Virus record (IMG/VR): IMGVR_UViG_3300032307_000731
Span: 32,001 to 96,000 of that record
Strand: one strand, 5' to 3'
DNA: 64,000 bases
Origin: a virus
A program made the translations under genes and the position numbers. This document shows positions 29,436-48,300 of the stretch, piece by piece; within the stretch, counting starts at the first letter, position 1; every line of letters begins with the position of its first letter. The notes below the pieces were generated by a model that saw only the letters and a list, made by a program, of their open reading frames with translations, had not been told where the DNA came from and ran no database searches.

Positions 29436-32400
29436 ATGGCAACAGCACAAGCAAATCAAAAAGTTTTCGTTTCACCAGGAGTTTATACTTCAGAAACTGA
29501 CTTATCATTCGTAGCACAAAGTGTGGGTGTTACAACCCTAGGTTTAGTTGGTGAAACTTTAAGAGGTCCAGCGTTCGAACCGGTATTCATTACAAACTAC
29601 GACGAATTCCAAGCCTTTTTCGGAGGAACAGAACCGACAAAATTCGTAAACACACAAATCCCTAAATATGAGGCTGCTTATATCGCAAAATCTTACTTAC
29701 AACAATCAAATCAATTGTTTGTTACAAGAATCTTAGGTTTATCGGGATATGATGCGGGTCCATCTTGGAGTATTAGAGTTACTGCAAATGTTGACCCAAC
29801 AACAATAATCCAAAGTCCAACAGGTGTTACATCTTGGAATAGAAGTTTTACAGGAGCCACTAGTGGTGGTACCGTTGATTTCGTTTCAGGTTCGTTCCCA
29901 TTAGCGATTCAAGCAAATTTAGATACTCAATATAGATTATCTGATGGTAGTACATCTACACTTGATGATGATTTTACCGCAAACATTTACAATGCGGTTG
30001 GGAATAATACTTTAACTGCGACAACAGCTTTCATTTATGGAGCAATTCCTGAGACAGATTATTATGATATCACTGATAACTACACAACAGTTATAAATGA
30101 ATATGGTTCTGATACTAATAACTTAGCAACTAATGATTTATCTGCATCTGAAAATGACCCATGGTTTTATGCAAACTTTAACAATTATGTTGGTAACTCT
30201 TATTCAGGTTATTCATTTGATTATAACATAAGTGCTTTAGAAGTAACAGGAGTAGGAAATTCACAAACTTTTTCGGGTACAATTTCAGGTAATTATTATA
30301 CATTTATTGGTACTGCTTACACTGAATTTAATAATATGGTTGTTGCAACACTTCGTTCAAGAGGTATTTCATTATATACTAATAGTTCATCAAGTGATAA
30401 TCACGGACAAATCTATGAAGTAAATAATGAAAACAATGTTACAATTTTAAATACTGACCAATATGCTGATATTGATAAAAATCCATTTGCGTCGTTTGGT
30501 TTATCAGGTGTTACTAAAGATGGTGATACTTTCACATTTGAAACTAACTTATCAGCAACTTCATCTAAGTTTATTACAAAAGTATTAGGTGTTGATAATT
30601 TTGGAAAATCAAGAAATGAAGTTCCTTTATTTGTTGAAGAAATTTATCCAAACTCATTAGCTTACGCTTACAATCAAGGATATATTAAAGGTATTAATCC
30701 TGAATTAATTGCATTACCTGAGGCTAGAAGTCAACAATCAAATTCAATTGCTTATAGTGTTGAAAGATATCAATCACCTAGTACACCTTATTTAGTATCA
30801 GAATTAAGAGGTAATAAAGTTTATAAATTATTCAAATTTGTTTCAATCTCTGATGGTGACGCAGCGAACACTGAGGTTAAAGTGTCGATAGCTAACTTAT
30901 CATTCAATAACATGACATTTGATGTATTAGTAAGAAATTTCTTTGATACGGATTCAAACCCAGTTGTTATTGAGAAATTTACTAATTGTAACTTGGACCC
31001 TAACTCTAACAACTTTGTCGCTAAGAAAATCGGTTCAACAAATGGGGAGTACGCATTATTATCGAAATATGTGATGATTGAAATGGCGGACGAAGCACCA
31101 ATTGACGCGATACCTTGTGGTTTTGAAGGATATATTCAAAGAGAATATGATTCGGTTACTAACCCGTCTCCATACCCTGTATTTAAAACGAAATATTTCT
31201 TCCCGGGTGAGACAATTGCTAATCCACCATTTGGAAACGCTAGTGGAAGTTCAAATTTAGTTGAATCTCCTGGTGATATTGTTAGAAGAACTTATTTAGG
31301 TTTCTCAACACAATATGGTATTGACGAATCATTCTTATCATATAAAGGAAGACAAAATCCTGCATCTTGGGTTAACTCTATAACACCTGTTGAAGGTGCT
31401 GCTTGGAACTATGTAAGTAAAGGTTTCCATATGGACTCCGGAGCAACAGTTGTAACAATTTCAAATAGTTATGACACGAGTGGTCAAACTGCTTTTGAAT
31501 GTGGTGTTGCTGACTTTAGAACAGACCCTGAAACTCAAGAGAATCCATATTACTTTATTTTCTCAAGAAAGTATACTTTATGTTTTGCTGGAGGGTTTGA
31601 TGGATGGGACATTTATAGAGAATATCGTACAAATGAAGATAGATTCCAATTAGGTCAATCAGGATTTTTAGCAGGAGCATCGGTATCAACAAGATATCCA
31701 AATGCAACGGGTGAAGGTTTATTCAAACGTATTGTAGTTGAAAATAATACTCAAGATTTTGCAAACACTGACTATTACGCTTACTTACTTGGTATATTAA
31801 CATTTGCAAATCCTGAGGCGACTAATATTAATGTATTAGCAACAGCAAGTATTGATTATGTTAATAACTCAAACTTAGTTGAGGAAACAATTGATATGGT
31901 TCAATTCCAAAGAGCGGATTCTGTTTATATTACTACAACTCCTGATTATAGAATGTATACACCGGATTCAACAAATCCACAAGACGTTATCTATTCTCAA
32001 GAGGCGGTTGATAACTTAGATAATACAGGAATTGACTCTAACTATACTGCGACTTACTATCCTTGGATTTTAACAAGAGACACGGTTAACAATACACAAA
32101 TTTATTTACCTGCAACAGGTGAAGTTTGTAGAAACTTAGCATTAACAGATAACATTGCTTTCCCATGGTTCGCATCAGCGGGTTACACAAGAGGTCTTGT
32201 AAATTCAGTTAAAGCGAGAGTTAAATTAACTCAAGAAGATAGAGATACACTTTACCAAGGTAGAATTAACCCTATCGCAACTTTCTCTGATGTAGGTACG
32301 GTTATTTGGGGTAATAAAACATTACAAATTGCTGACACAGCACTTAATAGATTGAACGTAAGAAGATTATTACTTCAAGCTCGTAAGTTAATATCAGCAG

Positions 32401-32657
32401 TGGCGGTAAGATTATTGTTTGAACAAAACGACCAAGTTGTTAGACAACAATTCTTAGATAGTGTTAACCCAATCTTAGACTCAATCAGAAGAGACCGAGG
32501 TTTATACGATTTCCGTGTAACGGTTTCATCATCTCCTGAGGATTTAGATAGAAATACATTAACAGGTAAAATTTACTTGAAACCAACGAAAGCGTTAGAG
32601 TTCATTGATATTGAATTCTTCATTACTCCTACAGGAGCTTCGTTCGAGAATATTTAA
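29436..32657 (+). CDS. contractile tail sheath protein
   Basis: SPGVYTSETD, PWFASAGYTRG, LYQGRINPI, WGNKTL, LNVRRL, KPTKALEFIDIEF. Confidence 0.95.
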   Translation: MATAQANQKVFVSPGVYTSETDLSFVAQSVGVTTLGLVGETLRGPAFEPVFITNYDEFQAFFGGTEPTKFVNTQIPKYEAAYIAKSYLQQSNQLFVTRILGLSGYDAGPSWSIRVTANVDPTTIIQSPTGVTSWNRSFTGATSGGTVDFVSGSFPLAIQANLDTQYRLSDGSTSTLDDDFTANIYNAVGNNTLTATTAFIYGAIPETDYYDITDNYTTVINEYGSDTNNLATNDLSASENDPWFYANFNNYVGNSYSGYSFDYNISALEVTGVGNSQTFSGTISGNYYTFIGTAYTEFNNMVVATLRSRGISLYTNSSSSDNHGQIYEVNNENNVTILNTDQYADIDKNPFASFGLSGVTKDGDTFTFETNLSATSSKFITKVLGVDNFGKSRNEVPLFVEEIYPNSLAYAYNQGYIKGINPELIALPEARSQQSNSIAYSVERYQSPSTPYLVSELRGNKVYKLFKFVSISDGDAANTEVKVSIANLSFNNMTFDVLVRNFFDTDSNPVVIEKFTNCNLDPNSNNFVAKKIGSTNGEYALLSKYVMIEMADEAPIDAIPCGFEGYIQREYDSVTNPSPYPVFKTKYFFPGETIANPPFGNASGSSNLVESPGDIVRRTYLGFSTQYGIDESFLSYKGRQNPASWVNSITPVEGAAWNYVSKGFHMDSGATVVTISNSYDTSGQTAFECGVADFRTDPETQENPYYFIFSRKYTLCFAGGFDGWDIYREYRTNEDRFQLGQSGFLAGASVSTRYPNATGEGLFKRIVVENNTQDFANTDYYAYLLGILTFANPEATNINVLATASIDYVNNSNLVEETIDMVQFQRADSVYITTTPDYRMYTPDSTNPQDVIYSQEAVDNLDNTGIDSNYTATYYPWILTRDTVNNTQIYLPATGEVCRNLALTDNIAFPWFASAGYTRGLVNSVKARVKLTQEDRDTLYQGRINPIATFSDVGTVIWGNKTLQIADTALNRLNVRRLLLQARKLISAVAVRLLFEQNDQVVRQQFLDSVNPILDSIRRDRGLYDFRVTVSSSPEDLDRNTLTGKIYLKPTKALEFIDIEFFITPTGASFENI

Positions 32658-33708: not shown

Positions 33709-34197
33709 ATGGCTGATTTATTGATGAAAATGCCGATTCCTTACGAACCGAAAAGACAGAATCGATTCATACTAAGGTTTCCATCAAGCTTAGGAATTAA
33801 CGAATGGTTTGTAGAAAGTGCTGCGAGACCATCGATTAAAATTGCTTCAACTGAGATTCAATTTTTAAATACCTCAACTTATGTTGCGGGAAGATTTAAT
33901 TGGGATGAAATTTCTGTTAAATTTAGAGACCCAATTGGACCTTCTGCGTCACAAGCTCTTATGGAGTGGGTTCGTTTACACGCTGAATCTGTTACAGGTC
34001 GTATGGGTTATGCAGCAGGTTATAAAAAAGATATTGACCTTGAGTTGTTAGACCCAACAGGAGTTGTTGTTGAGAAATGGATTTTATATGGTACATTCTT
34101 AACAAGTGTGAATTTTGGTTCATTAGGATACAGCACTGATGGTCTTGTAGATATTACAGCGTCATTAAGAATGGATAGATGTGTTTTAGTTTACTAA
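33709..34197 (+). CDS. tail tube protein (T4 gp19-like)
   Basis: YEPKRQNRF, YVAGRFNW, GYKKDIDLELLDPTG.VVEKW; follows the sheath gene. Confidence 0.9.
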   Translation: MADLLMKMPIPYEPKRQNRFILRFPSSLGINEWFVESAARPSIKIASTEIQFLNTSTYVAGRFNWDEISVKFRDPIGPSASQALMEWVRLHAESVTGRMGYAAGYKKDIDLELLDPTGVVVEKWILYGTFLTSVNFGSLGYSTDGLVDITASLRMDRCVLVY

Positions 34198-34230: not shown

Positions 34231-34266
34231 TAACCGTAAAGACATAAACTTTACGGTTATTTTTTT
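34231..34266 (+). terminator. Rho-independent terminator after the tube gene
   Basis: TAACCGTAAAG-7nt-CTTTACGGTTA followed by a T-run. Confidence 0.75.
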
Positions 34267-34268
34267 AT

Positions 34269-35012
34269 ATGGAAAATCAAACAACAGATTACGCACAACA
34301 AAATTTTACTTTACCTCACGATGTGGTACCATTACCATCAGGTGGAGTTTTTTACAAAAACAAAAAAAAATCAATTAAGGTGGGTTATTTAACTGCATCT
34401 GATGAGAATATTTTAATGGCGGGTGGATTAGATATTACCACAAATTTATTAAGAAATAAAATTTACGAACCAGACCTTAGGATTGAAGATATGATTGAAG
34501 GTGATGTTGAGTCAATATTGGTGTTTTTAAGAAACACTGCATTTGGGCCTGAAATGGATTTAAATTTAATTGACCCGGTAACAAAAAAACCATTCAAAGC
34601 AAAAGTTGCACTTGATGAATTGAATGTTATTAAAGGTCAGTTACCAAATGAGGATGGTACATTTACAACAATATTACCAAAATCTAATTCTACAATTAAA
34701 TTAAAACCATTAAATTATGGTGAAATAATGGAAATTAGTAAGCTAGAATCTACATACCCTCAAGGTAGAGTTGTTCCAAAAATAACTTGGAGACTTCAAA
34801 AGGAGATTGTTGAAATAAATGGAAACACTGATAAATCAGAAATATCCAAATTTGTTGAACAAATGCCTATTGCGGATTCTAAGTATATTAGACAATTTAT
34901 GAATGAAAATGAACCAAAATTGGACATGAGTCGAGTTGTAAGCACCCCATCAGGAGAAAAGATGACAGTTAATGTCGGATTTGGGGTGGACTTTTTTCGC
35001 CCTTTCTTCTGA
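34269..35012 (+). CDS. tail/baseplate-hub assembly chaperone (gp26-like)
   Basis: VPLPSGGVFY, LTASDENIL, FLRNTAFG, terminal VDFFRP; located between tube and tape measure genes. Confidence 0.75.
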   Translation: MENQTTDYAQQNFTLPHDVVPLPSGGVFYKNKKKSIKVGYLTASDENILMAGGLDITTNLLRNKIYEPDLRIEDMIEGDVESILVFLRNTAFGPEMDLNLIDPVTKKPFKAKVALDELNVIKGQLPNEDGTFTTILPKSNSTIKLKPLNYGEIMEISKLESTYPQGRVVPKITWRLQKEIVEINGNTDKSEISKFVEQMPIADSKYIRQFMNENEPKLDMSRVVSTPSGEKMTVNVGFGVDFFRPFF

Positions 35013-35151
35013 TTATAGGAAAGGACAAATAGATGAATTCTATTATTTAAACAAATTAATGAACATATCTTATCAAGATTTTATAACAATGCCCTTATTT
35101 GTTAGAAAATATTTGTTAGATAAATGGTTAGAAGATAATAAAAAGGACTGA
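34972..35151 (+). CDS. short overlapping +1-frame ORF (gp51/gpGT-like chaperone partner), possibly reached by frameshift
   Basis: (MSDLGW)TFFALSSDYRKGQIDEFYYLNKLMNISYQDFITMPLFVRKYLLDKWLEDNKKD; 59 aa, missed by the track; fills the gap up to the terminator. Confidence 0.7.
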   Translation: MSDLGWTFFALSSDYRKGQIDEFYYLNKLMNISYQDFITMPLFVRKYLLDKWLEDNKKD

Positions 35152-35166
35152 AAACTCAGTCCTTTT
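35141..35166 (+). terminator. Rho-independent terminator
   Basis: AAAAGGACTGA-aaac-TCAGTCCTTTT. Confidence 0.75.
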
Positions 35167-37020: not shown

Positions 37021-40000
37021 ATGTCAAATAGTCCATTAGATTTAATTAACTCGGATGCGTTCAGAAAAAAACTTATAACAAGAAATTTAGTACCTTATGC
37101 TAAATCTCCAAATAGACCTTCTGTACAAGTTCCGTATGAGCATATTCAATCAGATTTATCGGTTATTGATAGCCCTGACCAACTTATTGATGTTCCTTCA
37201 TTTGCAAACCAATTATATCCATTAAACAGATATGGTAATGAGGGTGGATACGAACAAGTTCCTGACCCAAATGGTTTAACGAATACCATTTCAAATCAAG
37301 GTGAATATGGACCGGGACAACAAGATGCTCATATAGTTGATGAAGGTTATGATGCAGTTAGATTATGGAGACCATTAAATGCCTATGCTGACGGATTAAA
37401 TGTTTTTGACTCTGCGGAATCATTTTCAAGTTTAGAGACAGTTAGACCTGACCAAGACAGACAAAGTAATGGACAACCATACCCTGGCCCAATTGTTGCG
37501 TCATCATATTCTCCTTTATCAATCTTATTATCAACTAATCCAACCGGTAGTAATGGTAATTTAAGTCAAGATTCATATATTGCTCGTTTAGGTGCTCAAA
37601 CACTTAGAAATGAGTTTCAAGAAAGAATTGCAGCCCGAATAAGACTTGAAACTATAGGACAAGCCAACATTTTAAATGTAACAAGTGGTACTGATTTAGT
37701 TAATATTTTATCAGGACAAGTTCCGATATTAGAACCAAATTGGCAAATAACAGTACCTGCAAATCCAATAACCGCAGCGGCTGATTTTGCATTAAGATTA
37801 GGGGGTAGTATTTTACCTGTTTCTTTAATACCGGGTTCTTATTTTGACCCAACCATTAATCCGGGACAACCAACAACTATTCAACAAGTAACTAATGCGA
37901 TTGCCGGTACAGGTATTGGTAATTTCTTTAATCAACTATTAGGGGGGACACAAACAGGTTCACAAATTTTTTATAATAATACAGGGGCCGGTCAAAAATC
38001 TCGTTTATTTAAAAACATTGATTACAACAGATACAAACCAAATTTTGTTAGAGGTGTATTTGATAGATTGTTAGGTGCTATAACAGGGACCCTTTCTGAT
38101 AATAGTAACTATTACGTTGGTTCTATAACATCAGAGCCATCTAGAGTGTTTTCTCCTGGTGGGGATTTACCGGTTGACCAATTTGGAAAAGAACAACAAT
38201 CACCGGTATACGGACCTCAAGAGTTAGCTCAACTTTATGAAGGACCAAGTAAAGAAGTTAGGTTAGGGGCTAATGGCCCTACATATTCTAATGGTGGTGG
38301 TATTGAAGGAGGTTTTACTTGGGTTTCTCCAAAATATAAAGATAATGCCGGAAAAAAAGTTGGGTTAGGTGGGGTTGTAACAAATGAAGATGAAGATTTT
38401 AAACCATCATCATATAATACAACTGAATCAACAAACATAACTTTTAAAGGAGGTTCTATCTTAGATGATACTCAGAGAATCATTAATAGCCAACCTCAAG
38501 GAGGTCGAAGATTACAACACGTAGGAAATGCGATTGACCAAGTTAGTAAAGTTTTCCATGATGGATATAAAGAAATTACTAAAGGTTCAAGAGTATATCG
38601 ATATGTTGGTGCTGTGGGACAAGAAGTTGGGACAGAATATTGTCGTATTTTCGCTAAAGATTTACCATATCTACAATACAATGATTTACAAAAAGTAGAT
38701 GGTATTACAACATCGGGTAGAAGATTTTCAGATTCGGTATTTGACAACACCTATAATTTAAATATCGCCCCAAACAAACAAGAAGGTGGACAAGATTCGA
38801 CTAATTTGATTGGAACTGAAAATAATGCGTATGCTAAAAAGTATATGTTTTCATTAGAAAATTTAGCTTGGAGAACATCAAGTACTCCGGGTTATGCGGT
38901 TTCTGATTTACCTGTTTGTGAAAGAGGTCCTAATGGAGGACGAGTTATGTGGTTTCCACCATATGGTTTAACATTTAGTGAACAAGTATCTGCAAATTGG
39001 AATACATCTGAATTTCTTGGGAGACCGGAACCAATTTACACTTATAAAAACACTTCTCGTACTGGTACTTTAACTTGGAAAATAGTTGTTGACCATCCGT
39101 CATCTTTAAATGTTGTTGTTAATAAAGTTTTGGCTAATGAAACAAATAAAGTAAGGATTGATAGTATTTTAGATTCATTCTTTGCAGGATGTAGAAAATA
39201 TGATTTATATGAATTAGCCAAAAAATATTATACGGTTAATCCTAATGATTTATATTTGTTACAACAGGCGATTACTTCAAAAGAAACGACAAAAGAACAA
39301 ACTGAATATATTAAAAAAACAATTCAAACAGGTAACAATTCGACTACAGGTGCTGATACAAATGTTTCTCAAGCAAGTAGTGTAGATTTATTTGGAAAGT
39401 ATAAAGATTTGGGATTCTATTTTGAAAATGATTATCCTCAAAAGAATAATGTAAGTGCTTACCCATCTCAATATAATTTATACATAGGTAATAAAAGTGT
39501 TTATAATAGTAAACCAAATGCGGCACAAACTAGTGAAGTTTTTGAAACTGTTGTAACACCTAATTATGAGGTAATGAAACAATTGGCGGTTGATATTGGT
39601 AAACAATTAAGTGCTAATACTCAGGGTATTGTGACAATAACAATTGATGCAAGTTGTTCCGCACCTGCGACTCCGTCGTATAATGTTGAATTAGCAAAAA
39701 GAAGGATTGAATCAGCTATTAAATTTTTCCAAGAAAACGAAAATACTAAAAAGGAGTTTGGTAAAAGATTATTGGTAAATGAAGGTAGAAGTTTAGGAGA
39801 GCAAACCACCACATTACCTTTAGCGTCTAAATCAAGACAAGCCCCATATACATTACCTTTCGTTAGTAAACAAAGTGTAAATTGTACTGACCAAGACTCT
39901 AGTGTTGTCGGAGGTGATATTAAAGTAGGTGCTAAAGAAGTTTATACTTATGGTGCGATGGCATGTAGAAGAGCGTATATTAGTTCAATTAAATCAACTT

Positions 40001-42051
40001 TAAATAACCCAACAACTACACCGCCAGCACAATTTACTACCGTTCTTGAGGGTAATAAAGTACTGAAAACGGTTAAAGAAGAAGTTGTTAGTCAAGAGTA
40101 CAAACCTAGAGATAATATTACTAAAAGAGTTTTAAGAGCGTTATTATCAGAATGTGATTATTTTGAAACAATAAAAGCAGAAACACCTATGGTTTATGAT
40201 AACTTGAGAGATAAATTAAAATTCTTTCAACCTGCATTCCATTCAACAACTCCTGAAGGATTGAACTCTCGTCTAACATTTTTACAACAATGTTTGAGAC
40301 CGGGGGATACTATTCCAACAATTAAAGATGTGAATGGTAGTCAACAATTGCAATATAATAATGCGACTAACACCTCTTTTGGTGCACCTCCAGTATTGGT
40401 ACTACGTGTTGGAGATTTTTATAACACTAAAATAATACCAACGTCATTGTCATTACAATATGAATCACTTGATATCAATCCTGAGGGTATTGGTATTCAA
40501 CCTATGATTGCAAATGTGACAATGGGATTTAATTTTGTTGGTGGTAGTGGATTAAAAGAGTCAATTGATAAGTTACAAAATGCATTAACGTTTAATTATT
40601 ATGCTAATACTGAGATTTGGGACGATAGAGCCGATGTTACGTCAAATGAAGAATTCTTAAAATCGTTAGATAAAGAATTTTTGGCGATGGCACCACCTCC
40701 ATCACCACCTACATTGAATCAGGCAGAGGTTGAAAATGGTCAAAATAATAATAGTGCTATTGGAACAATTACAACAAATGAGATTACTGCAACTGAGGAA
40801 AAAGGTACTTTAAATTATTCTGATTTTATGGTTAAAGTTGTTAAAGAAACTCAAACTTATTTCCAAACAATTGTTAATAAGACAAAAGAAAGTGTTAATC
40901 AATATAACAACGCTGTTCGTCAACAATGGATGTTAGAAAGGTCATATACTCAAGGTAATATTAGAACATCTGAGAATCCAACTGTGTTATTTGGAAAACC
41001 AAGTAATGTTGAAAAAAGATTTGATGAAATTTTTGCGTCATTACAGAAGAACATTTCAGATGGAGATGAAGGTTTTATACAATGGATGTCTTCTCCTTCA
41101 TTTGGGTTTTCAACTAAAGTAATTCGACAACTTAAGGATAATTACATTAATTTAGTTAAAAACAAAAGAGGTTCATTCCAAAATGCAATTAGCAAGATAA
41201 CTCAGGATGTTACTAATGTTGAACAAACTTATATCCAAACATTAGGTAGAGCTAATACTATTATTTTCCAAGGAATGACTGATATGGGTACTGATGGATA
41301 TCAGTCAAAATCGGGGCCTGTTAGGGTTTATAATACAAGTGGTACAACAAATGTTAATATTACATCAAATGGTGCCGCTAACACATTAATTGAATTAGTT
41401 AATGATATCAATACAATTAAATCGGGTATTACTGAATTTAATAAAATTATTTCGAGTACTTATGATTTCACGTATGAGGGACAAAAATATACCGGTATTT
41501 TAGTTTATGGAACTGACACTAAAGGTAAAACGGGTACTGACGCACCTACGGTTGAAAAAGTGTTTAATCCTTTTAGTAAAAATAATGACTTCCAAAATGA
41601 TATTTTTAAACGAGTTTATATGATTATTTCAGATGATATTCTTGATACTAAAAAATATGAAACATTTAAAACTGCGATGATTGGTAATATAATTGGTAAC
41701 GCTAGTATTATTGGAACCGGATTTGATGATATTGAGAAAAAATTTGATGATTATTGGTTGGTTAAAACAAAACCATTATTCTTAAATGAAACAAATATTA
41801 CAAAATCATTTATTGATAATATTGAGAAAACACCATTAAAAGATTTCTTAATATACACACCTTTTGATAAAAAATCTAGAGAGTTTTTTTATACAACATT
41901 AAGTAACGCTACTGATAATAAAAAGAAATCTCAAGAAACAATGATTTCATCATTGGGTGATACGACAAATAGGAATACAGACATAAACAAATGGAATAGT
42001 GAAGATGGAGTTAATTCATTGGCATATATTTCAAAAGTAAAACTTAATTAA
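37021..42051 (+). CDS. large baseplate/tail-initiator protein with an internal OmpA-C-like domain
   Basis: WNTSEFLGRPEPIYTYKNTSR, PPVLVLRVGDFYNTKII; FYFEND...YNVELAKRRIESA. Confidence 0.6.
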   Translation: MSNSPLDLINSDAFRKKLITRNLVPYAKSPNRPSVQVPYEHIQSDLSVIDSPDQLIDVPSFANQLYPLNRYGNEGGYEQVPDPNGLTNTISNQGEYGPGQQDAHIVDEGYDAVRLWRPLNAYADGLNVFDSAESFSSLETVRPDQDRQSNGQPYPGPIVASSYSPLSILLSTNPTGSNGNLSQDSYIARLGAQTLRNEFQERIAARIRLETIGQANILNVTSGTDLVNILSGQVPILEPNWQITVPANPITAAADFALRLGGSILPVSLIPGSYFDPTINPGQPTTIQQVTNAIAGTGIGNFFNQLLGGTQTGSQIFYNNTGAGQKSRLFKNIDYNRYKPNFVRGVFDRLLGAITGTLSDNSNYYVGSITSEPSRVFSPGGDLPVDQFGKEQQSPVYGPQELAQLYEGPSKEVRLGANGPTYSNGGGIEGGFTWVSPKYKDNAGKKVGLGGVVTNEDEDFKPSSYNTTESTNITFKGGSILDDTQRIINSQPQGGRRLQHVGNAIDQVSKVFHDGYKEITKGSRVYRYVGAVGQEVGTEYCRIFAKDLPYLQYNDLQKVDGITTSGRRFSDSVFDNTYNLNIAPNKQEGGQDSTNLIGTENNAYAKKYMFSLENLAWRTSSTPGYAVSDLPVCERGPNGGRVMWFPPYGLTFSEQVSANWNTSEFLGRPEPIYTYKNTSRTGTLTWKIVVDHPSSLNVVVNKVLANETNKVRIDSILDSFFAGCRKYDLYELAKKYYTVNPNDLYLLQQAITSKETTKEQTEYIKKTIQTGNNSTTGADTNVSQASSVDLFGKYKDLGFYFENDYPQKNNVSAYPSQYNLYIGNKSVYNSKPNAAQTSEVFETVVTPNYEVMKQLAVDIGKQLSANTQGIVTITIDASCSAPATPSYNVELAKRRIESAIKFFQENENTKKEFGKRLLVNEGRSLGEQTTTLPLASKSRQAPYTLPFVSKQSVNCTDQDSSVVGGDIKVGAKEVYTYGAMACRRAYISSIKSTLNNPTTTPPAQFTTVLEGNKVLKTVKEEVVSQEYKPRDNITKRVLRALLSECDYFETIKAETPMVYDNLRDKLKFFQPAFHSTTPEGLNSRLTFLQQCLRPGDTIPTIKDVNGSQQLQYNNATNTSFGAPPVLVLRVGDFYNTKIIPTSLSLQYESLDINPEGIGIQPMIANVTMGFNFVGGSGLKESIDKLQNALTFNYYANTEIWDDRADVTSNEEFLKSLDKEFLAMAPPPSPPTLNQAEVENGQNNNSAIGTITTNEITATEEKGTLNYSDFMVKVVKETQTYFQTIVNKTKESVNQYNNAVRQQWMLERSYTQGNIRTSENPTVLFGKPSNVEKRFDEIFASLQKNISDGDEGFIQWMSSPSFGFSTKVIRQLKDNYINLVKNKRGSFQNAISKITQDVTNVEQTYIQTLGRANTIIFQGMTDMGTDGYQSKSGPVRVYNTSGTTNVNITSNGAANTLIELVNDINTIKSGITEFNKIISSTYDFTYEGQKYTGILVYGTDTKGKTGTDAPTVEKVFNPFSKNNDFQNDIFKRVYMIISDDILDTKKYETFKTAMIGNIIGNASIIGTGFDDIEKKFDDYWLVKTKPLFLNETNITKSFIDNIEKTPLKDFLIYTPFDKKSREFFYTTLSNATDNKKKSQETMISSLGDTTNRNTDINKWNSEDGVNSLAYISKVKLN

Positions 42052-42374
42052 TGGCTTTTCAATATTGGAATAGATACAGTGAATTTTTAATTAACGGTGA
42101 ACAAACCGTAGTTCCATATGTGCAACTACCTCAAAAAACTACCGACAAAGCTTATATCTATAAAGTTGCTAAAAGTAGATTGGATAAAGTTTCACAGGAG
42201 TATTACAATTCACCATACTTTAGTTGGTTAATTTTACAAGCTAACCCTCAATTTGGTGGGTTGGAAAATAATATATATGACGGGGCTATCTTGATAATTC
42301 CATTTCCTTTACTACCATCTTTACAGGATTATAAGGCAGCGTTAGAAAATCATTTTTATTATTATGGCAGGTAA
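42051..42374 (+). CDS. LysM-like baseplate protein (gp53/tail X-like)
   Basis: RLDKVSQEYYNSPYFSWLILQANP...GAILIIP. Confidence 0.7.
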   Translation: MAFQYWNRYSEFLINGEQTVVPYVQLPQKTTDKAYIYKVAKSRLDKVSQEYYNSPYFSWLILQANPQFGGLENNIYDGAILIIPFPLLPSLQDYKAALENHFYYYGR

Positions 42375-45300
42375 CTTACAAGCAGACAACAGCGGAGATA
42401 TTTTAGTTGAGTTTGATTACAACAATATCATTGTAGTTGACCCAAATAAAACAATTGACTCTCAAGGTAAAATTCAAGAAAGATTGGTTGACCATGAGAG
42501 TTTGGTTATGTATGCAAATTTGGAAGCAGAAGTTCTTCCAAGAACTAAACTAGCGGTAGGGGGTAGTCCTGAAGATAGAATTAGAACCATTTCTGTTGCC
42601 AAAATGAATTTTTTAAAACCAACCAAAGATTCGTTTTTAGGTGTGGGTTACTATGATGAGTTAACCGGAGAAAATTCAACCAAATTTAAAGGTGCTAATC
42701 AAATGATGGAAAAGGCGGTTGACCCAAAAAATGGTGACACCCCTTATATTATTAGTTCTCCTGCAAATTTAAAAGATGTTTTCGATAATGGTTTATTAGG
42801 TATTACACAGATTAATGTTACTACTAATTCATCATTTGTTCCTTCAGTTACAATGGAATTAGAAGATGTTCAAGGAAAGGCGTTATTTCAATTGGGTAAT
42901 AATTCACCATACGCGGCGTTTTTTAATTTACCATATCCACCATTTTATTTAACACTTAAAGGTTACTATGGTCAGGCGATTAGATATCAATTAAATTTAG
43001 AGACTTTTAACGCTCGATTTAATTCATTTAGTGGAAATTACCAAGTTAGTTTAAAGTTTAAAGGGTACAAGTTTAATGTTCTAAATGAAATATCAATGGG
43101 ACATTTACTTGCAGTGCCACACATGTATGGTCAAAGATTTGACATATCTACAACTCCAGGGGGTACTCAAGAATCTAACAAACAAGCAGAATCTCAATCT
43201 AACGTTGAGGGTAGGGCATCTCAAAATAATGCCTTAAGCCAAGATGAGGTTGTTACTCAAATTGTTTCAGAAAAAGGTTATCAGAAAATTATTGAGGTTT
43301 ATAGTGAATATAAATCTAAAGGATTAATTCCTGCTAATTTACCTGAATTAACTTTATTTCAGTTAATGACTAAATTACAAACATTTGAGAATAATATAAT
43401 GGCATCTTTTCCTCGTGCAAAAGTTGCTCCTCTTACTAATATTAGAAGTTATAAAGAAGTTCTGAAACAATACTTTGATGCTGTTAGAGGTTCAAATCTA
43501 TCATGGTTTAATAAATATTTAAATCCAAAACCTATTGTAACTAATGGGAATGAAAAAATATATGTATTTAAAGAACTTAGCCGAGAAGATAAGGACTATG
43601 CGATAACATTGTTGGAATCTTATATAAAAAAATTCAATAATGCTTTGTCTGAAAACGCTACTTTAGGTAAGAATGGTGAATCTCCAATTGTTAATCCAAT
43701 AGCGTTAAAAACGATTGAGATAGACCCACCAACAGATGAATCTATTAATTGGAAAGAAACTGTTAGGTTACAAACAGGTAAAGTATTACCAACCATTGAG
43801 GATGAACAAAAAGTTAAAGAATTGATTTATCTTACAAAAATACCTGCAGCAGCAAAAACAGAAACCAATGGTAAAACATCGGTTGATATAGTTAATACAA
43901 AATTTTTCATATTTGAAGGTAATGGTCGATTTGACAATCAAATATCATTAATAGAGGCACAGGCAAATAAAAAATTGTCAGAATATGAGGCGTCAATCTC
44001 AGCTGAATTGTTAAGGAAAATTGAAGATACTGATACAGGTCTTGGATTTAAACCAACGGTTAGAAATATGATTGCGGTTGTAATGGCTTCAGCAGAAGCG
44101 TTTATTCGTTTAATGGATGACGTTCATACTAACGCATGGAATGTAAAATATGACCCAGTTAGAAAACAGGCGATATTAGATAATCCTTCATCGGCTCCAA
44201 GTTCGGAGACAATACAAAAAGTGGCCATTACAACAGAGGCTCAACAATCAAATCAAGGTTTAAGTAATTCTGAAATACCTGTTTATCCATGGCCGTTATT
44301 TTTTGTTGAAACACCTGAAGACACTAAAGGAAGATTTCAATTGAAATACATTGCGGACCCATCAGTTGTTGACTTAACCCAAGGTTATTTATATGACAAA
44401 TGGCCTGAGGTTGAATTTGTGGAAGAATATATGATTGGTTTAACTCAAAAATTTAGTCAACCGTCAGCACCACCACCATTAGATAATCAAAGAGATACTA
44501 ATAGGATTAATATTAATGCAATTGAATTTCCATCAGAAGGATTACCTTATGTTAACAAAGAAGAAGTTAAGTTCTTTTATGAAATATGGGAAAGACAATT
44601 TTTAACATCACATTATTCAAATTTAATTAGGGCTAATCAAAATCAAATTGATTCATTAATTAAATTAAACTCTGAGGCAGAGGTTAATAATATTGTTAAA
44701 GGAATTGGTGTGAGTTCTCCATATTTAAGTTTAAAATTAAAAAATTACGATTTAAATGCTTCAAATTATCAGGAGTTTTTAAAAACTATTTCAAATTCAG
44801 GAACCGGTAGAGCTTATCAAGATTATATCAGAGATTTTTTTGTTACACCATACATTAGAAATTTAACAGAAAATTCTTATAGTATTTTAAGTGTTAACGA
44901 TATCGGTAAGCTACCTCAATCAAGTACTAAATCAGATGCGTTACAATCTTTATTATTGAATGCGTCTAATGAGCCATTGGTTATTGATACGTTACCTTAT
45001 ACAGACCCGACATGGTGTTTAAATAATTTAAGTTCAAGTAACAAATCGGTTGGAAATGAAGTTTTTAATACAAAACAAACTTTAAAAGTTTTTGAACCAA
45101 GAAAAGTTATTGCAAATTTCACAGACGTATATGATTTTACTACTAATAGACCTGTAACGAATTTTTCTTTTTATCAAAATCAAAATCCTACTGTGTTTGC
45201 AATACTAGGGTTAAATGGTTTTTACGAGTCTCGAACACCAAAAACTTTTGTGGCGACCGAAGGGTATTGTGATTACACAACCCCAACAAATGCGTTACCA

Positions 45301-48300
45301 TTTAGAACTACAACTTCAATATTGAACACACCTTATTTTGTTAATTCAATTCAAAATGGTGTGCAAAATATTAGAACAAGTGACCCATATCCGTTTGTTC
45401 AATCCGCTTATTTGTTTTTGAATTCATTACCATTGGCATCATTAAGAGAACGATATAAAACATTGTCAAATGACATTACAACTGACTTAGATTATATATC
45501 GTCATGTTTTAATAAGTTTGGTGCAATTCACAAATTACCATATGCTTGGATTTTAAAATATGGTTCTGTTTGGCATCGTTATAAAAAATATAAGGAGTCA
45601 AATACAGATATTTTAGATAGTGCTTGGAAGAATTTTGATTATAGAACCAATTATAGTCCTATTTTAAGTTCAATTACTCAAACATATGACTTTAAAATAA
45701 ATGACACACCAACAAGTATTACATTACAACAAGAGGATTCAAATAGTGTTAAAATGCAAATCGGGTTTTATCCTAAAGTTGTAAATGACTTTAATGTTTT
45801 TTATAAAGGTTTTGAGTTATACGATGAATATACTAATAGTGAAATTCAAAGTAGTGTTAATAATGGGATGAAAATTTATAATTTTGAAAACTCAAATATT
45901 ACTGCGAATCGAAGTAATAGAACGTTAAATTTATTTACATATTCTGTATTGTTAGAAAATAAAGATTTTGGTACTGAAGTAGATTGTGACCCTACTAATA
46001 ATACTAAAGGTGTTGAATATTTTGTTGTACCTTCTTTTGGTACTTTTTATAACCAAACTCAAATTGCTTGTGTTGAAAATTTAACAACAACTAATAATGC
46101 TGTAGTTGATTTTACCTTTAATCCAAACATATATAATGGTTCAGTTAGAACTTTATGGTCTGCACCAAATTATGGTTATTTTGATAATAGTCAGATTAAA
46201 TACCCTCAGCCCGACTCATATTTAAATTTTATTAATAATGGAGAGGAACAATCCCCTATGTCGTTATTAAATGAGGATAAGTATAGTAAAATTGAAGAAA
46301 TGTTCTCAGTATTTGAGAAGAAAATTTTAGACTCATTCGAACAAGAGTTTTTAAATTTCTGTAAGCCAATTACTGACATTTCAACAATAAAAGAAACAAC
46401 TTCTTTTTATACTTCAACAGTTGATGATAATAATAATTTTAAAAATTTCCAATCAGTATTTAGAGGATTGATGTCCGTTCCTGCAAAACCGGCGGGTGTA
46501 AATGAAGACGAATATTTTAATAATACAATTACTAATCAATACAATACATTCCAAGGTGGTATTAAAGATTTTATGAATTATGATGTTTTATTTAGATATG
46601 GTAATCCATCTGATTATAGAAGAAGACTTTTTAACTCTTATTTATCTCATAATAACACTCAAAAAGTTGTTGACCCTGTTAAATTTAGACCTTACGTTCA
46701 AAATACTCTTCCAACAAATGGAGGAACGTTAACGGTTTCTCAATCAAAAGGATTAAATCCTAACGCGTGGCTAGCACTTGAAACTGAAGTTGGATTTTCA
46801 ACAATAAGAAATGTTGAGTATAGTAGTACCGGTTCATATATAACGGATTTCTTTGTAAATAATAATATTGAATTTACAACAGATAATGTTGTTTTATTGG
46901 CACCAATAATTAAGATGTACGCGACTCAAAAATTGAAAAACCCAACAATTACGGTTGGTCAATTCCAAAATCAGATTAATCAGTACTTAAACAATGAAAG
47001 TGTATTACAAGACAATTTCTTAAATTTAGTTTTAGATGGTGTTCGTAGACAACTACCTAATCAACAACAATTACCGGAAAGAGCTATTAGAAGTGCGATT
47101 GATGGAGAACAAAGTAAAGTTGAGAATTACGAAGTGTTCAAATCTCTTAATGATAAATGGATTGCAGGTGGTGACTATAAAACAAAAACATTATTTGAGG
47201 ATATGTTATTTTTAGATAGGGCATCAAGAAATATTGGTGATACTATCATATTAAATATCTTTGATATACAAGGAATGTTTGGGGTTGGTGGTAAAGATGG
47301 TGATTATTCTTTAAACCAAGCAATGAGTGTTTACACCTTTATTAGTGGACTATTGATTAACAATAATTTCACAGTAATGAATTTGCCGGCATATATTAAT
47401 TTTTATAATGTTCAAGATGTTGATGGAACGGTTATTCCAAATAAATCAGAAGGTTCGTTAGGGTTTGCTAATAGTATGTGGGGAACATTCTTGGATGTTG
47501 ACTATAGAAAATCAAGTCCAAAAATGGTTTGTTTTTATGTGGGTAAACCATCTCAGTATTTGGATTTACCAAAAGGTAATTTTAGATTTAGGGATGATGG
47601 TTTTGAAATGAGAAGAGCGTCTGAAAATCCATTAATTGAAAATCAACAGGGTAAAAAAGATTGGGCTTTATCTAACAAATGTGTTGGTTTTAATGTTGAT
47701 ATTGGAACTCGTAATCAAAGTATATTTTATTCATTTAGTGTTTCCCAAGATAATGGGACTGCCACATCAGAATCGATAAATGCTCAAATTAATATGGTTG
47801 ACCAAGCATCAGGAAAAAATGTTACAACCCAAAACGCAAGTTTATATAATCTATACAAACAGAGAAGTTATAAATGTTCTGTTGTTTGTTTAGGAAATGC
47901 GTTATTACAACCAACCATGTATTTTAATTTAAGACACGTCCCAATGTTTAATGGACCATATATGATACAACAAGTTGAACATAGTATTCAACCGGGTCAA
48001 TTCCAAACATCATTTCAAGGTATTAGACAAGGAGTGTATGATTTACCAGCAATAGATAATTTCATTCAAAGTATTAATCAAAACTTATTAACTAAATTAG
48101 AATCGATTCTTAAGATTAAGAAAGACGTTATTAATGTGTTATCAGCATCAACAGATTCTAGTAAGAGTAATAATATTCAACAAAGTTCTAATACGACTAA
48201 AGCGGCTTCAAATACTTGTAGTAGTAAGGTTCTTCCGGTATATCTTAATGCCGGATATAATGTGGTTGATGCAACGAAAACTAGTCCTACTGAGGCAGAA

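What the first reader, a model, noticed from the sequence alone, without database searches (positions are those of the whole stretch)
34972..35151. Candidate +1 ribosomal frameshift (UUU_UUU_CGC) in the tail assembly chaperone
Seen: the chaperone ends GAC TTT TTT CGC CCT TTC TTC TGA (34989-35012). The +1 frame stays open to TGA at 35149-35151 and encodes FALSSDYRKG...ITMPLFVRKYLLDKW, followed by a terminator. Established: tail chaperones between tube and tape measure genes commonly frameshift (lambda G/GT -1, P2 E/E' -1, Mu -2), and UUU_CGN is the +1 shift motif of influenza PA-X and amalgaviruses. Inference: tRNA-Phe slips UUU to UUC at a rare CGC codon. The alternative is independent initiation at ATG 34972.
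Basis: partly seen in the sequence, partly recalled or inferred. Interest (0 to 1): 0.7.

Follow-up and report, generated by a model that had tools for sequence, protein, structure and literature searches.

The report
Plus-one frameshift in tail chaperone gene
One tail-assembly gene of this giant phage very probably makes a short and a long protein, because some ribosomes slip one base forward at a conserved UUU-UUU-CGC site; phage T4 encodes the same protein pair as two separate genes (26 and 51).

Summary
The 247-codon gene at 34269-35012 belongs to the T4 gp26/gp51 family (PF12322, PHROG 150). It lies between the tail tube gene and a conserved ~600-aa putative tape measure gene. It ends GAC TTT TTT CGC CCT TTC TTC TGA, and the +1 frame stays open to 35151.

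In 238 related loci (24-97% identity), the +1 frame continues for 30 or more codons in 98%. The -1 frame does so in 2%. The +1 peptide is conserved from its first residues, and its variation falls on third codon positions. All 154 unique contexts keep an in-frame UUU_Y or CUU_U.

ATG 34972 is not conserved. Some relatives have a +1-frame stop directly before the slip site. Relatives with TTC TTT CGY rule out a -2 slip or polymerase slippage as the general route. CGC occurs once in 19,869 window codons, at this site.

The 50-residue extension resembles the C-terminal part that distinguishes T4 gp51 from gp26. Complete relatives carry only one gene of this family. This is a new variant (+1, UUU_CGN, gp26/gp51 family) of the known tail-chaperone frameshift. 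There is no experimental proof. This scan reached the same reading earlier on other phage genomes.

The parts
33709..34197 (+). Tail tube gene (162 aa), upstream neighbour
   Evidence: PHROG 4542 tail tube E=5.6e-24; weak PF06841 T4 gp19 match
34231..34259 (+). Terminator-like hairpin between the tube gene and the chaperone gene
   Evidence: 11-bp stem followed by T7. Phage SP-15 has an annotated terminator at the same position
34269..35012 (+). Zero-frame ORF: short form, 247 aa, gp26-like hub/tail assembly chaperone (P0001)
   Evidence: PF12322 at 29.8 bits (cut-off 24.5); PHROG 150 E=5e-12. AF2 model pLDDT 86.7. More than 4500 homologues, and those listed stop 2-6 residues after the FF motif
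34983..34986 (+). GGGG run (Gly codon GGG plus the G of GTG), 5 nt before the first TTT and 8 nt before the second: possible Shine-Dalgarno-like stimulator (inference)
   Evidence: The GGG codon is kept in about 80-90% of 68 unique contexts, whereas GGG is only 12.6% of Gly codons in the window. Neighbouring third positions vary freely
34972..34974 (+). ATG in the +1 frame: by-product of zero-frame Asn-Val (AAT GTC), not a conserved start
   Evidence: No Shine-Dalgarno motif at the right spacing in any close relative
34992..35000 (+). Shift site TTT TTT CGC. P-site UUU 34995-34997 re-pairs with UUC 34996-34998, and the rare CGC sits in the A site
   Evidence: It is the only in-frame TTTC word in the ORF
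34999..35151 (+). +1-frame extension, 50 codons plus TGA. It replaces the last 4 residues (RPFF) and gives the 293-aa long form (P0271 = 34269-34997 joined to 34999-35148)
   Evidence: Conserved peptide, with codon-position entropy 0.19/0.15/0.77. Resembles the gp51 C-terminus
35141..35166 (+). Terminator-like hairpin over the +1 stop codon
35196..36992 (+). Conserved 598-aa downstream gene, putative tape measure protein (about the length of T4 gp29)
   Evidence: Homologous gene directly downstream in 123 loci. Single members weakly hit TMP_3 (E=7e-4) and PhageMin_Tail (E=1.8e-3). Atlas lead to PF10145. The function is inferred

Best explanation
Gene 34269-35012 encodes a gp26-like hub/tail assembly chaperone of a ~310-kb giant myovirus. 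Most ribosomes end at TGA 35010 and make the 247-aa short form. A minority pause with tRNA-Phe on UUU (34995-34997), because the A-site codon CGC is extremely rare. That tRNA re-pairs one base forward on UUC, which its GAA anticodon fits better. Translation then continues from GCC 34999 in the +1 frame to TGA 35149. The result is a 293-aa long form (junction ..GVDFF|ALSSDYR..) with a 50-residue, probably helical, C-terminal extension. By analogy with lambda G/GT and T4 gp26/gp51, the shared body would hold the tape measure or hub protein. The extension would add a second contact, and neither form would remain in the virion. Shown: the anatomy, the conservation and the family membership. Inferred: the slipping itself, its efficiency and the binding partners.
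For: 1) Anatomy as described.
2) In 238 loci at 24-97% identity, the +1 extension is 30 or more codons in 98%, against 2% for the -1 frame.
3) All 151 loci of the window's clade keep TTT_CGN. A second clade has TTT TTT TGG or TTT CTT TGG. All 154 unique contexts have an in-frame UUU_Y or CUU_U in the overlap.
4) The +1 peptide is conserved right from the site. Entropy per +1 codon position is 0.19/0.15/0.77 for 35013-35057, upstream of any downstream ATG. The overlap 34992-35012 is nearly invariant.
5) A TGA>GGA change removes the zero-frame stop but is synonymous in the +1 frame (L071, L080-82).
6) The ATG is not conserved, no start at all is present in 27 of 133 distant contexts, and a +1 TAG lies directly before the site in L025-29.
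7) CGC is used once in 19,869 codons, and TTT_CGN occurs nowhere else although 5.6 are expected.
8) No in-frame fused homologue was found, and the homologues listed end at the same place.
9) PHROG 150 holds both T4 gp26 and gp51, and gp51 reaches about 45 profile positions further. The trans-frame product extends the match from position 233 to 253 and adds 6.3 bits.
10) A relative's +1 peptide hits the gp51 family PHROG 634 at E=4.7e-5.
11) hhalign runs across the junction to the gp51 C-terminus at E=4.9e-4. The extension alone scores 26.9, against at most 15.4 in 21 controls.
12) Five complete genomes hold a single gene of this family each.
13) Fold matches to phage tail-chaperone structures: YqbN 3klu Z 5.6 and the HK97 chaperone 2ob9 Z 5.0, with uncharacterised 3fgx at Z 6.4 on top.
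Against: There are no protein or ribosome-profiling data, so the slip and its rate are inferred. No downstream stimulatory structure was found; the local hairpin encloses the site itself and its z-score is -0.86. On this window's T6 run, a -2 slip or a slip at the first UUU would reach the same frame. The window's own extension gives no significant hit to gp51 models by itself. That link rests on relatives and on profile comparisons of modest strength (Prob 18-32%). The fold matches have only middling Z scores. The tape-measure identity of the downstream gene is weakly supported. T4 and some gut Bacteroidales relatives lack the extension, so the device is not universal in the family.
Confidence: 0.87

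Rival explanations
1. The same long product is made, but by a -2 ribosomal slip on the T6 run or by RNA polymerase slippage on it (loss of one U or gain of two). It is not made by a +1 slip at UUU_C.
For: The window has six T in a row, so tRNA-Phe could re-pair two bases back. A second clade has T7.
Against: Seven relatives have TTC TTT CGY, and LR756508 has AAC TTT CTA. In these, neither a -2 re-pairing nor a homopolymer run exists, yet the +1 ORF is intact. The A-site codon CGN is conserved, and a backward slip or polymerase slippage would not need it. Six T is short for efficient polymerase slippage (general knowledge).
Confidence: 0.06
2. The 59-codon ORF 34972-35151 is a separate small gene that starts at its own ATG.
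For: An ATG exists at 34972, and 27 of 32 unique close contexts keep one. An AGGAG lies 15 nt upstream.
Against: The ATG is lost by a synonymous change in 7 relatives that are 97% identical. In L025-29 and L071 a +1 stop separates it from the conserved peptide. It is absent from most distant relatives. No Shine-Dalgarno motif at working distance occurs in any close relative. The residues between the ATG and the site (SDLGW) vary, while conservation begins exactly at FF. The ATG is explained by the zero-frame codons AAT GTC.
Confidence: 0.04
3. The +1 frame is open by chance or is a relic, and no extended protein is made.
For: There is no expression evidence. T4 gp26 has only a 10-codon +1 stub.
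Against: 98% of 238 loci keep the +1 frame open, against 2% for the -1 frame. The peptide is conserved across three clades and shows third-position variation.
Confidence: 0.02

Closest known systems
Bacteriophage T4 gp26 (208 aa) and gp51 (249 aa), hub assembly chaperones (Leiman et al. 2010, PMC3004832, Table 2)
   Same: Same protein family: PF12322 and PHROG 150 hold both T4 proteins and the window's protein. Both systems have a short and a long form differing by about 41-46 C-terminal residues. The extension shares the motif S/T-Y-x-D-V/I-x-x-M-P-x-x-E/V-R with the gp51 C-terminus. gp51 is required for assembly but absent from the particle (PMC3004832).
   Different: T4 uses two separate, diverged genes on opposite strands and no frameshift; gp26 has only a 10-codon +1 stub. 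Here one gene gives both forms. The window's clade has no cysteines, whereas T4 gp26, LR756508 and SP-15 carry two CxxC pairs. The gene lies next to the tube and putative tape measure genes, not beside gene 25.
Lambda G/GT-type programmed frameshift in tail assembly chaperone genes (Xu, Hendrix and Duda 2004; reviewed in PMC5009743)
   Same: The position between the tail tube gene and the tape measure gene is the same. Both have two overlapping frames near the 3' end, a long form that shares the body of the short form, and family-wide conservation. Fold hits to tail chaperone structures were found (2ob9, 3klu).
   Different: The direction is +1, not -1, and there is no X XXY YYZ heptamer. The protein is twice the size and appears to hold two chaperone-like domains. 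There is no sequence similarity to G/GT. A +1 shift in such a gene has so far been proposed only for the haloarchaeal virus HSTV-2 (PMC5009743).
+1 frameshifting at UUU_CGN in influenza A PA-X (UCC_UUU_CGU; Firth et al. 2012, cited in PMC5009743) and Amalgaviridae
   Same: The core is the same: P-site UUU followed by C, an A-site CGN arginine codon that is rare in the genome, and no obvious downstream structure.
   Different: Those are eukaryotic ribosomes and RNA viruses. This is a bacterial system and a DNA phage. Any resemblance in mechanism is inferred and was not tested here.
prfB (release factor 2) +1 frameshift, CUU_UGA_C with an upstream Shine-Dalgarno element (own knowledge)
   Same: It is a bacterial +1 slip of a P-site tRNA onto an overlapping UUN codon during a slow A-site event. 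A second clade here uses CUU_U. A conserved GGGG run lies just upstream in the window's clade.
   Different: The A site holds a sense codon, not a stop. The G run lies 5-8 nt upstream rather than 3 nt. There is no autoregulatory logic.

Membership tests
T4 gp26/gp51 hub assembly chaperone family (PF12322, PHROG 150) | Significant match to the family profile over the whole domain | tested here: met
   PF12322 at 29.8 bits against a cut-off of 24.5, residues 32-234 to profile 12-209/219. PHROG 150 E=5e-12. T4 gp26 and gp51 match the same PHROG at 7e-71 and 3e-84.
T4 gp26/gp51 hub assembly chaperone family (PF12322, PHROG 150) | The long form carries the gp51-specific C-terminal part (PHROG 634; PF28602 in the precomputed labels) | tested here: inconclusive
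   A relative's +1 peptide (L140) hits PHROG 634 at E=4.7e-5. hhalign of the extension profile against the gp51 family gives P=0.0013, score 26.9, with controls at or below 15.4. The trans-frame product adds 6.3 bits to PHROG 150. The window's own extension alone gives no hit, and PF28602 is not in the local library.
T4 gp26/gp51 hub assembly chaperone family (PF12322, PHROG 150) | Four-cysteine (two CxxC) motif seen in T4 gp26 | tested here: not met
   The window's protein has no cysteine. T4 gp26, LR756508 and SP-15 have the pairs. The motif is therefore not universal in the family.
Tail assembly chaperone with programmed frameshift (lambda G/GT type) | Gene lies between the major tail or tube gene and the tape measure gene | tested here: met
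   The tube gene is upstream. A conserved ~600-aa gene lies downstream in 123 loci, with weak tape-measure signals. SP-15 has the order sheath, tube, this gene, 1198-aa tail protein.
Tail assembly chaperone with programmed frameshift (lambda G/GT type) | Conserved overlapping second frame without its own start, reached near the 3' end | tested here: met
Tail assembly chaperone with programmed frameshift (lambda G/GT type) | -1 slippery heptamer X XXY YYZ leading into the -1 frame | tested here: not met
   The -1 frame closes after a median of 6 codons, and the open frame is +1.
Tail assembly chaperone with programmed frameshift (lambda G/GT type) | Tail-chaperone fold | tested here: inconclusive
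   Among the five best of 48,161 chains are B. subtilis YqbN 3klu (Z 5.6, rmsd 3.5, 83 aligned, model 128-216) and the HK97 tail assembly chaperone 2ob9 (Z 5.0, rmsd 3.7, 89 aligned). Uncharacterised 3fgx is top (Z 6.4, rmsd 4.4, 84 aligned, model 10-101). These Z values are below the level the tool calls distinctive. Foldseek gives 2ob9 prob 0.44, E 1.4.
Tail assembly chaperone with programmed frameshift (lambda G/GT type) | Both forms bind the tape measure protein, are needed in a fixed ratio, and are absent from virions | not testable with these tools
   Needs biochemistry and genetics.
+1 frameshift of the UUU_CGN type (PA-X, amalgaviruses) | In-frame UUU followed by a rare CGN codon, with the +1 frame open | tested here: met
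+1 frameshift of the UUU_CGN type (PA-X, amalgaviruses) | Trans-frame protein demonstrated | not testable with these tools
   No proteomic or ribosome-profiling data.

The most novel reading that the evidence does not exclude
A single frameshifting gene is the widespread, possibly ancestral, way to make the gp26/gp51 chaperone pair, and T4's two genes are a duplicated, resolved version of it. T4 would then have had a G/GT equivalent all along, acting on the tape measure protein gp29. UUU_CGN/UUU_UGG would be a common class of bacterial +1 recoding site, used by thousands of giant and other myoviruses and missed by gene callers.
Probability: 0.5. Interest if true: 0.75.

Novelty: new variant of a known kind. 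Interest (0 to 1): 0.66.

Why it matters
Programmed +1 frameshifts at internal sense codons are rare and hard to spot in bacteria and their phages. This one is conserved across hundreds of environmental phage genomes and has a simple, testable motif. It would assign a role to the long-puzzling T4 hub proteins gp26 and gp51, as the short and long forms of one tail chaperone. It would also explain why T4-like phages seemed to lack the otherwise near-universal tail-chaperone frameshift. In practice, annotation pipelines miss the long form: SP-15 lists a 39-aa orphan gene instead. A search rule could recover it: a PF12322 gene ending FF-x-P with an open +1 frame.

Tried and rejected
- Complex prediction of the putative tape measure (A5) with the chaperone (A4) gave no verdict, score 0.00. 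It counts neither for nor against binding.
- The AF2 fold of the trans-frame product without an alignment gave pLDDT 34.8 and is unusable. It shows only a low-confidence helical extension.
- Foldseek against the PDB found nothing at E<=0.001. The sequence search of the PDB found nothing.
- My own HMMs of the extension and of the trans-frame family did not reach T4 gp26 or gp51 by hmmsearch. Only profile-profile comparison and the PHROG models did.
- BLASTP of the long form against T4 gp51 found nothing, and neither did the 598-aa protein against T4 gp29.
- A search for natural in-frame fusions of body and extension (161-513 aa) found none.
- Alignment A3 was too diverse for a locus scan.
- The genome-contig scan gave only 11 loci, mostly contigs of metagenome bins.
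- The hairpin 34983-35003 was rejected as a stimulator. It contains the slip site, would be melted by the ribosome, shows no clear covariation, and has z-score -0.86.
- No tRNA genes lie in the window.
- The literature search found no paper describing this frameshift, but subscription journals are not covered.

Full report
**Observation**

The sequence is as described. ORF 34269-35012 (247 codons) ends GAC TTT TTT CGC CCT TTC TTC TGA at 34989-35012. The +1 frame opens at 34966, holds an ATG at 34972 and runs to TGA 35149-35151. A terminator-like hairpin with an 11-bp stem (35141-35166) covers that stop, though its T tract is weak.

**Context**

The window is 32% G+C. It is part of a 115-kb fragment of an uncultured virus. 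Close relatives are complete contigs of 297-345 kb. The gene order on the + strand is:
- a 1073-aa sheath protein
- a 276-aa protein of unknown function
- the tail tube gene
- this gene
- a 598-aa protein
- proteins of 1676 and 2564 aa.

The 247-aa protein passes Pfam's threshold for PF12322 (T4_baseplate, the gp26 family) and matches PHROG 150. The downstream 598-aa gene is conserved in this position in 123 related loci. It has only weak tape-measure signals. Its length is close to that of T4 gp29 (590 aa).

**Comparative test of the frameshift**

I fetched 80 close loci (74-97% identity) and 160 distant ones. I added the uncultured 484-kb phage LR756508 and Bacillus phage SP-15.

- Of the 238 loci that could be analysed, 98% have a +1 frame that continues 30 or more codons past the zero-frame stop (median 46). 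The -1 frame does so in 2% (median 6).
- The +1 peptide is homologous throughout: FF[AVG]L[ST]S[DE]Y...[ST]Y.D...MP..[EV]R[RK]. Conservation begins exactly at the FF residues.
- Among close relatives, variation at 35013-35057 follows the +1 codon phase, with entropy 0.19/0.15/0.77. This stretch lies upstream of the first downstream in-frame ATG. The overlap 34992-35012 is almost invariant.
- In L071 and L080-82 the zero-frame stop is lost (TGA>GGA) by a change that is synonymous in the +1 frame.

**Slip site against start codon**

- All 151 loci of the window's clade have TTT followed by CGN. The counts are TTT TTT CGT 77, CGC 54, CGG 10, CGA 3 and TTC TTT CGY 7.
- The TTC TTT CGY relatives, and LR756508 (AAC TTT CTA), have no T run. 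This removes a -2 slip and polymerase slippage as general mechanisms. It leaves UUU>UUC re-pairing at the second Phe codon.
- A second clade has TTT TTT TGG or TTT CTT TGG (UUU_U or CUU_U, with the single Trp codon in the A site).
- All 154 unique contexts hold UUU_Y or CUU_U in the overlap.
- By contrast, ATG 34972 arises from the zero-frame codons AAT GTC. It is lost by AAT>AAC in seven 97%-identical relatives. In L025-29 and L071 a TAG separates it from the conserved peptide. It occurs in only 23 of 133 distant contexts, and 27 of those have no ATG, GTG or TTG at all. No close relative has a Shine-Dalgarno motif at working distance.

**Codon usage**

In 19,869 codons of the window's long ORFs, CGC occurs once, at this site. 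In-frame TTT_CGN occurs nowhere else although 5.6 are expected. TTT_Cnn is depleted, 53 against 89 expected. The ORF contains a single in-frame TTTC word. This fits a shift-prone UUU_C combined with a slowly decoded A-site codon. The slow decoding is inferred.

**What the two products are**

- T4 gp26 (208 aa) and gp51 (249 aa) both match PHROG 150. gp51 extends about 45 profile positions beyond gp26. gp51 homologues are labelled PF12322 plus PF28602. Leiman et al. 2010 list both proteins as hub assembly chaperones, and gp51 is absent from the particle.
- Reading the window's gene through the shift gives a 293-aa protein. Its PHROG 150 match grows from profile position 233 to 253, and by 6.3 bits.
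- The +1 peptide of a 44%-identical relative hits the gp51 family PHROG 634 at its C-terminal end, E=4.7e-5.
- A profile of trans-frame products aligns with a gp51 family profile across the junction to the gp51 C-terminus, E=4.9e-4.
- The extension alone scores 26.9 (P=0.0013), against at most 15.4 for one reversed and 20 shuffled controls.
- Five complete relatives have only one PHROG 150 gene each.
- T4 gp26 itself ends EFFELL with only a 10-codon +1 stub. No natural in-frame fusion was found.

The link to gp51 is therefore supported, but at modest statistical strength and mostly through relatives.

**Fold**

An AF2 model of the short form is confident, with pLDDT 86.7. A search of 48,161 PDB representatives puts phage tail-chaperone structures among the top five. 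B. subtilis YqbN (3klu) has Z 5.6 on residues 128-216, and the HK97 tail assembly chaperone (2ob9) has Z 5.0. An uncharacterised Bacillus protein (3fgx) is first, with Z 6.4 on residues 10-101. These Z values are middling. They suggest, but do not show, two tandem chaperone-like domains.

**Mechanism**

The most likely route is as follows. tRNA-Phe sits in the P site on UUU 34995-34997 while the ribosome waits for a rare arginyl-tRNA. It re-pairs on UUC 34996-34998, and GCC 34999 is read next. This gives ..GVDFF|ALSSDYR...

In this window, a slip at the first UUU would give the same protein.

A GGGG run (34983-34986) rests on a Gly GGG codon that is kept in about 80-90% of 68 unique contexts, although GGG makes up only 12.6% of Gly codons here. 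It may act as a Shine-Dalgarno-like stimulator. This is a lead only.

**Limits**

- Nothing here shows the protein or the shift rate.
- Some gut Bacteroidales relatives and T4 lack the extension.
- The binding job gave no verdict.
- I found no paper describing this frameshift. The 2016 recoding review mentions only a likely +1 case in the haloarchaeal virus HSTV-2.
- Earlier agents of this scan reached the same reading on other genomes, including the gp26/gp51 idea. I re-tested that idea here.

Noticed in passing
window 34983-34986: The Gly codon GGG forms a GGGG run 5-8 nt before the slip codons. It is kept in about 80-90% of 68 unique contexts, although GGG is only 12.6% of Gly codons in the window and this stretch is read in one frame only. 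It may be a Shine-Dalgarno-like stimulator of the +1 shift. The TGG clade has no such element.
   Followed up: partly
L002 5740-5859 (Bacillus phage SP-15, KT624200): The annotated 39-aa gene SP15_046 is the tail of a 107-codon +1 frame that overlaps the end of the 'baseplate hub subunit' gene SP15_045 at GAA TTT TTT CAC. The record probably misses the frameshifted long form.
   Followed up: partly
window 34999-35148; G004, G005, G006, G007: In four of five related phage records, the only six-frame match to Pfam DUF6760 (PF20546) falls exactly on the +1 extension. All are below the cut-off (12-15 bits against 27). The extension may be a distant relative of that uncharacterised family.
   Followed up: partly
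window 34269-35012: The protein has no cysteine, whereas T4 gp26, LR756508 and SP-15 homologues carry two CxxC pairs (a likely zinc ribbon). The window's clade has lost them.
   Followed up: no
window 29436-32657: The sheath protein is very long (1073 aa). Sheath-family matches cover only residues ~825-1071, and the first ~800 residues match nothing.
   Followed up: no
window 37021-42051 and 42364-50058: Two giant ORFs (1676 and 2564 aa) follow the putative tape measure gene. The 1676-aa protein has no Pfam or PHROG match.
   Followed up: no
window 34952-34964: AGGAG lies 5 nt before an in-frame ATG (34962) in the last 17 codons of the chaperone gene. It recalls the internal start of T4 gp26' (annotated), but it may be chance.
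   Followed up: no
L250-L255 (gut Bacteroidales and other MAG contigs): Distant PF12322-like genes (26-34% identity) in these contigs lack the +1 extension. In two of them the next long gene overlaps in the -1 frame. The frameshift is therefore not universal in the family.
   Followed up: partly
L164-L188 (clade ending ..VFLNIA): A third clade has a 150-200-aa N-terminal addition and less uniform slip contexts (for example ATT TTC CTC AAT, TTT CTC AAT). It keeps the +1 extension (ISPNYEQNLKDEL...). Its exact shift codon is unclear.
   Followed up: partly
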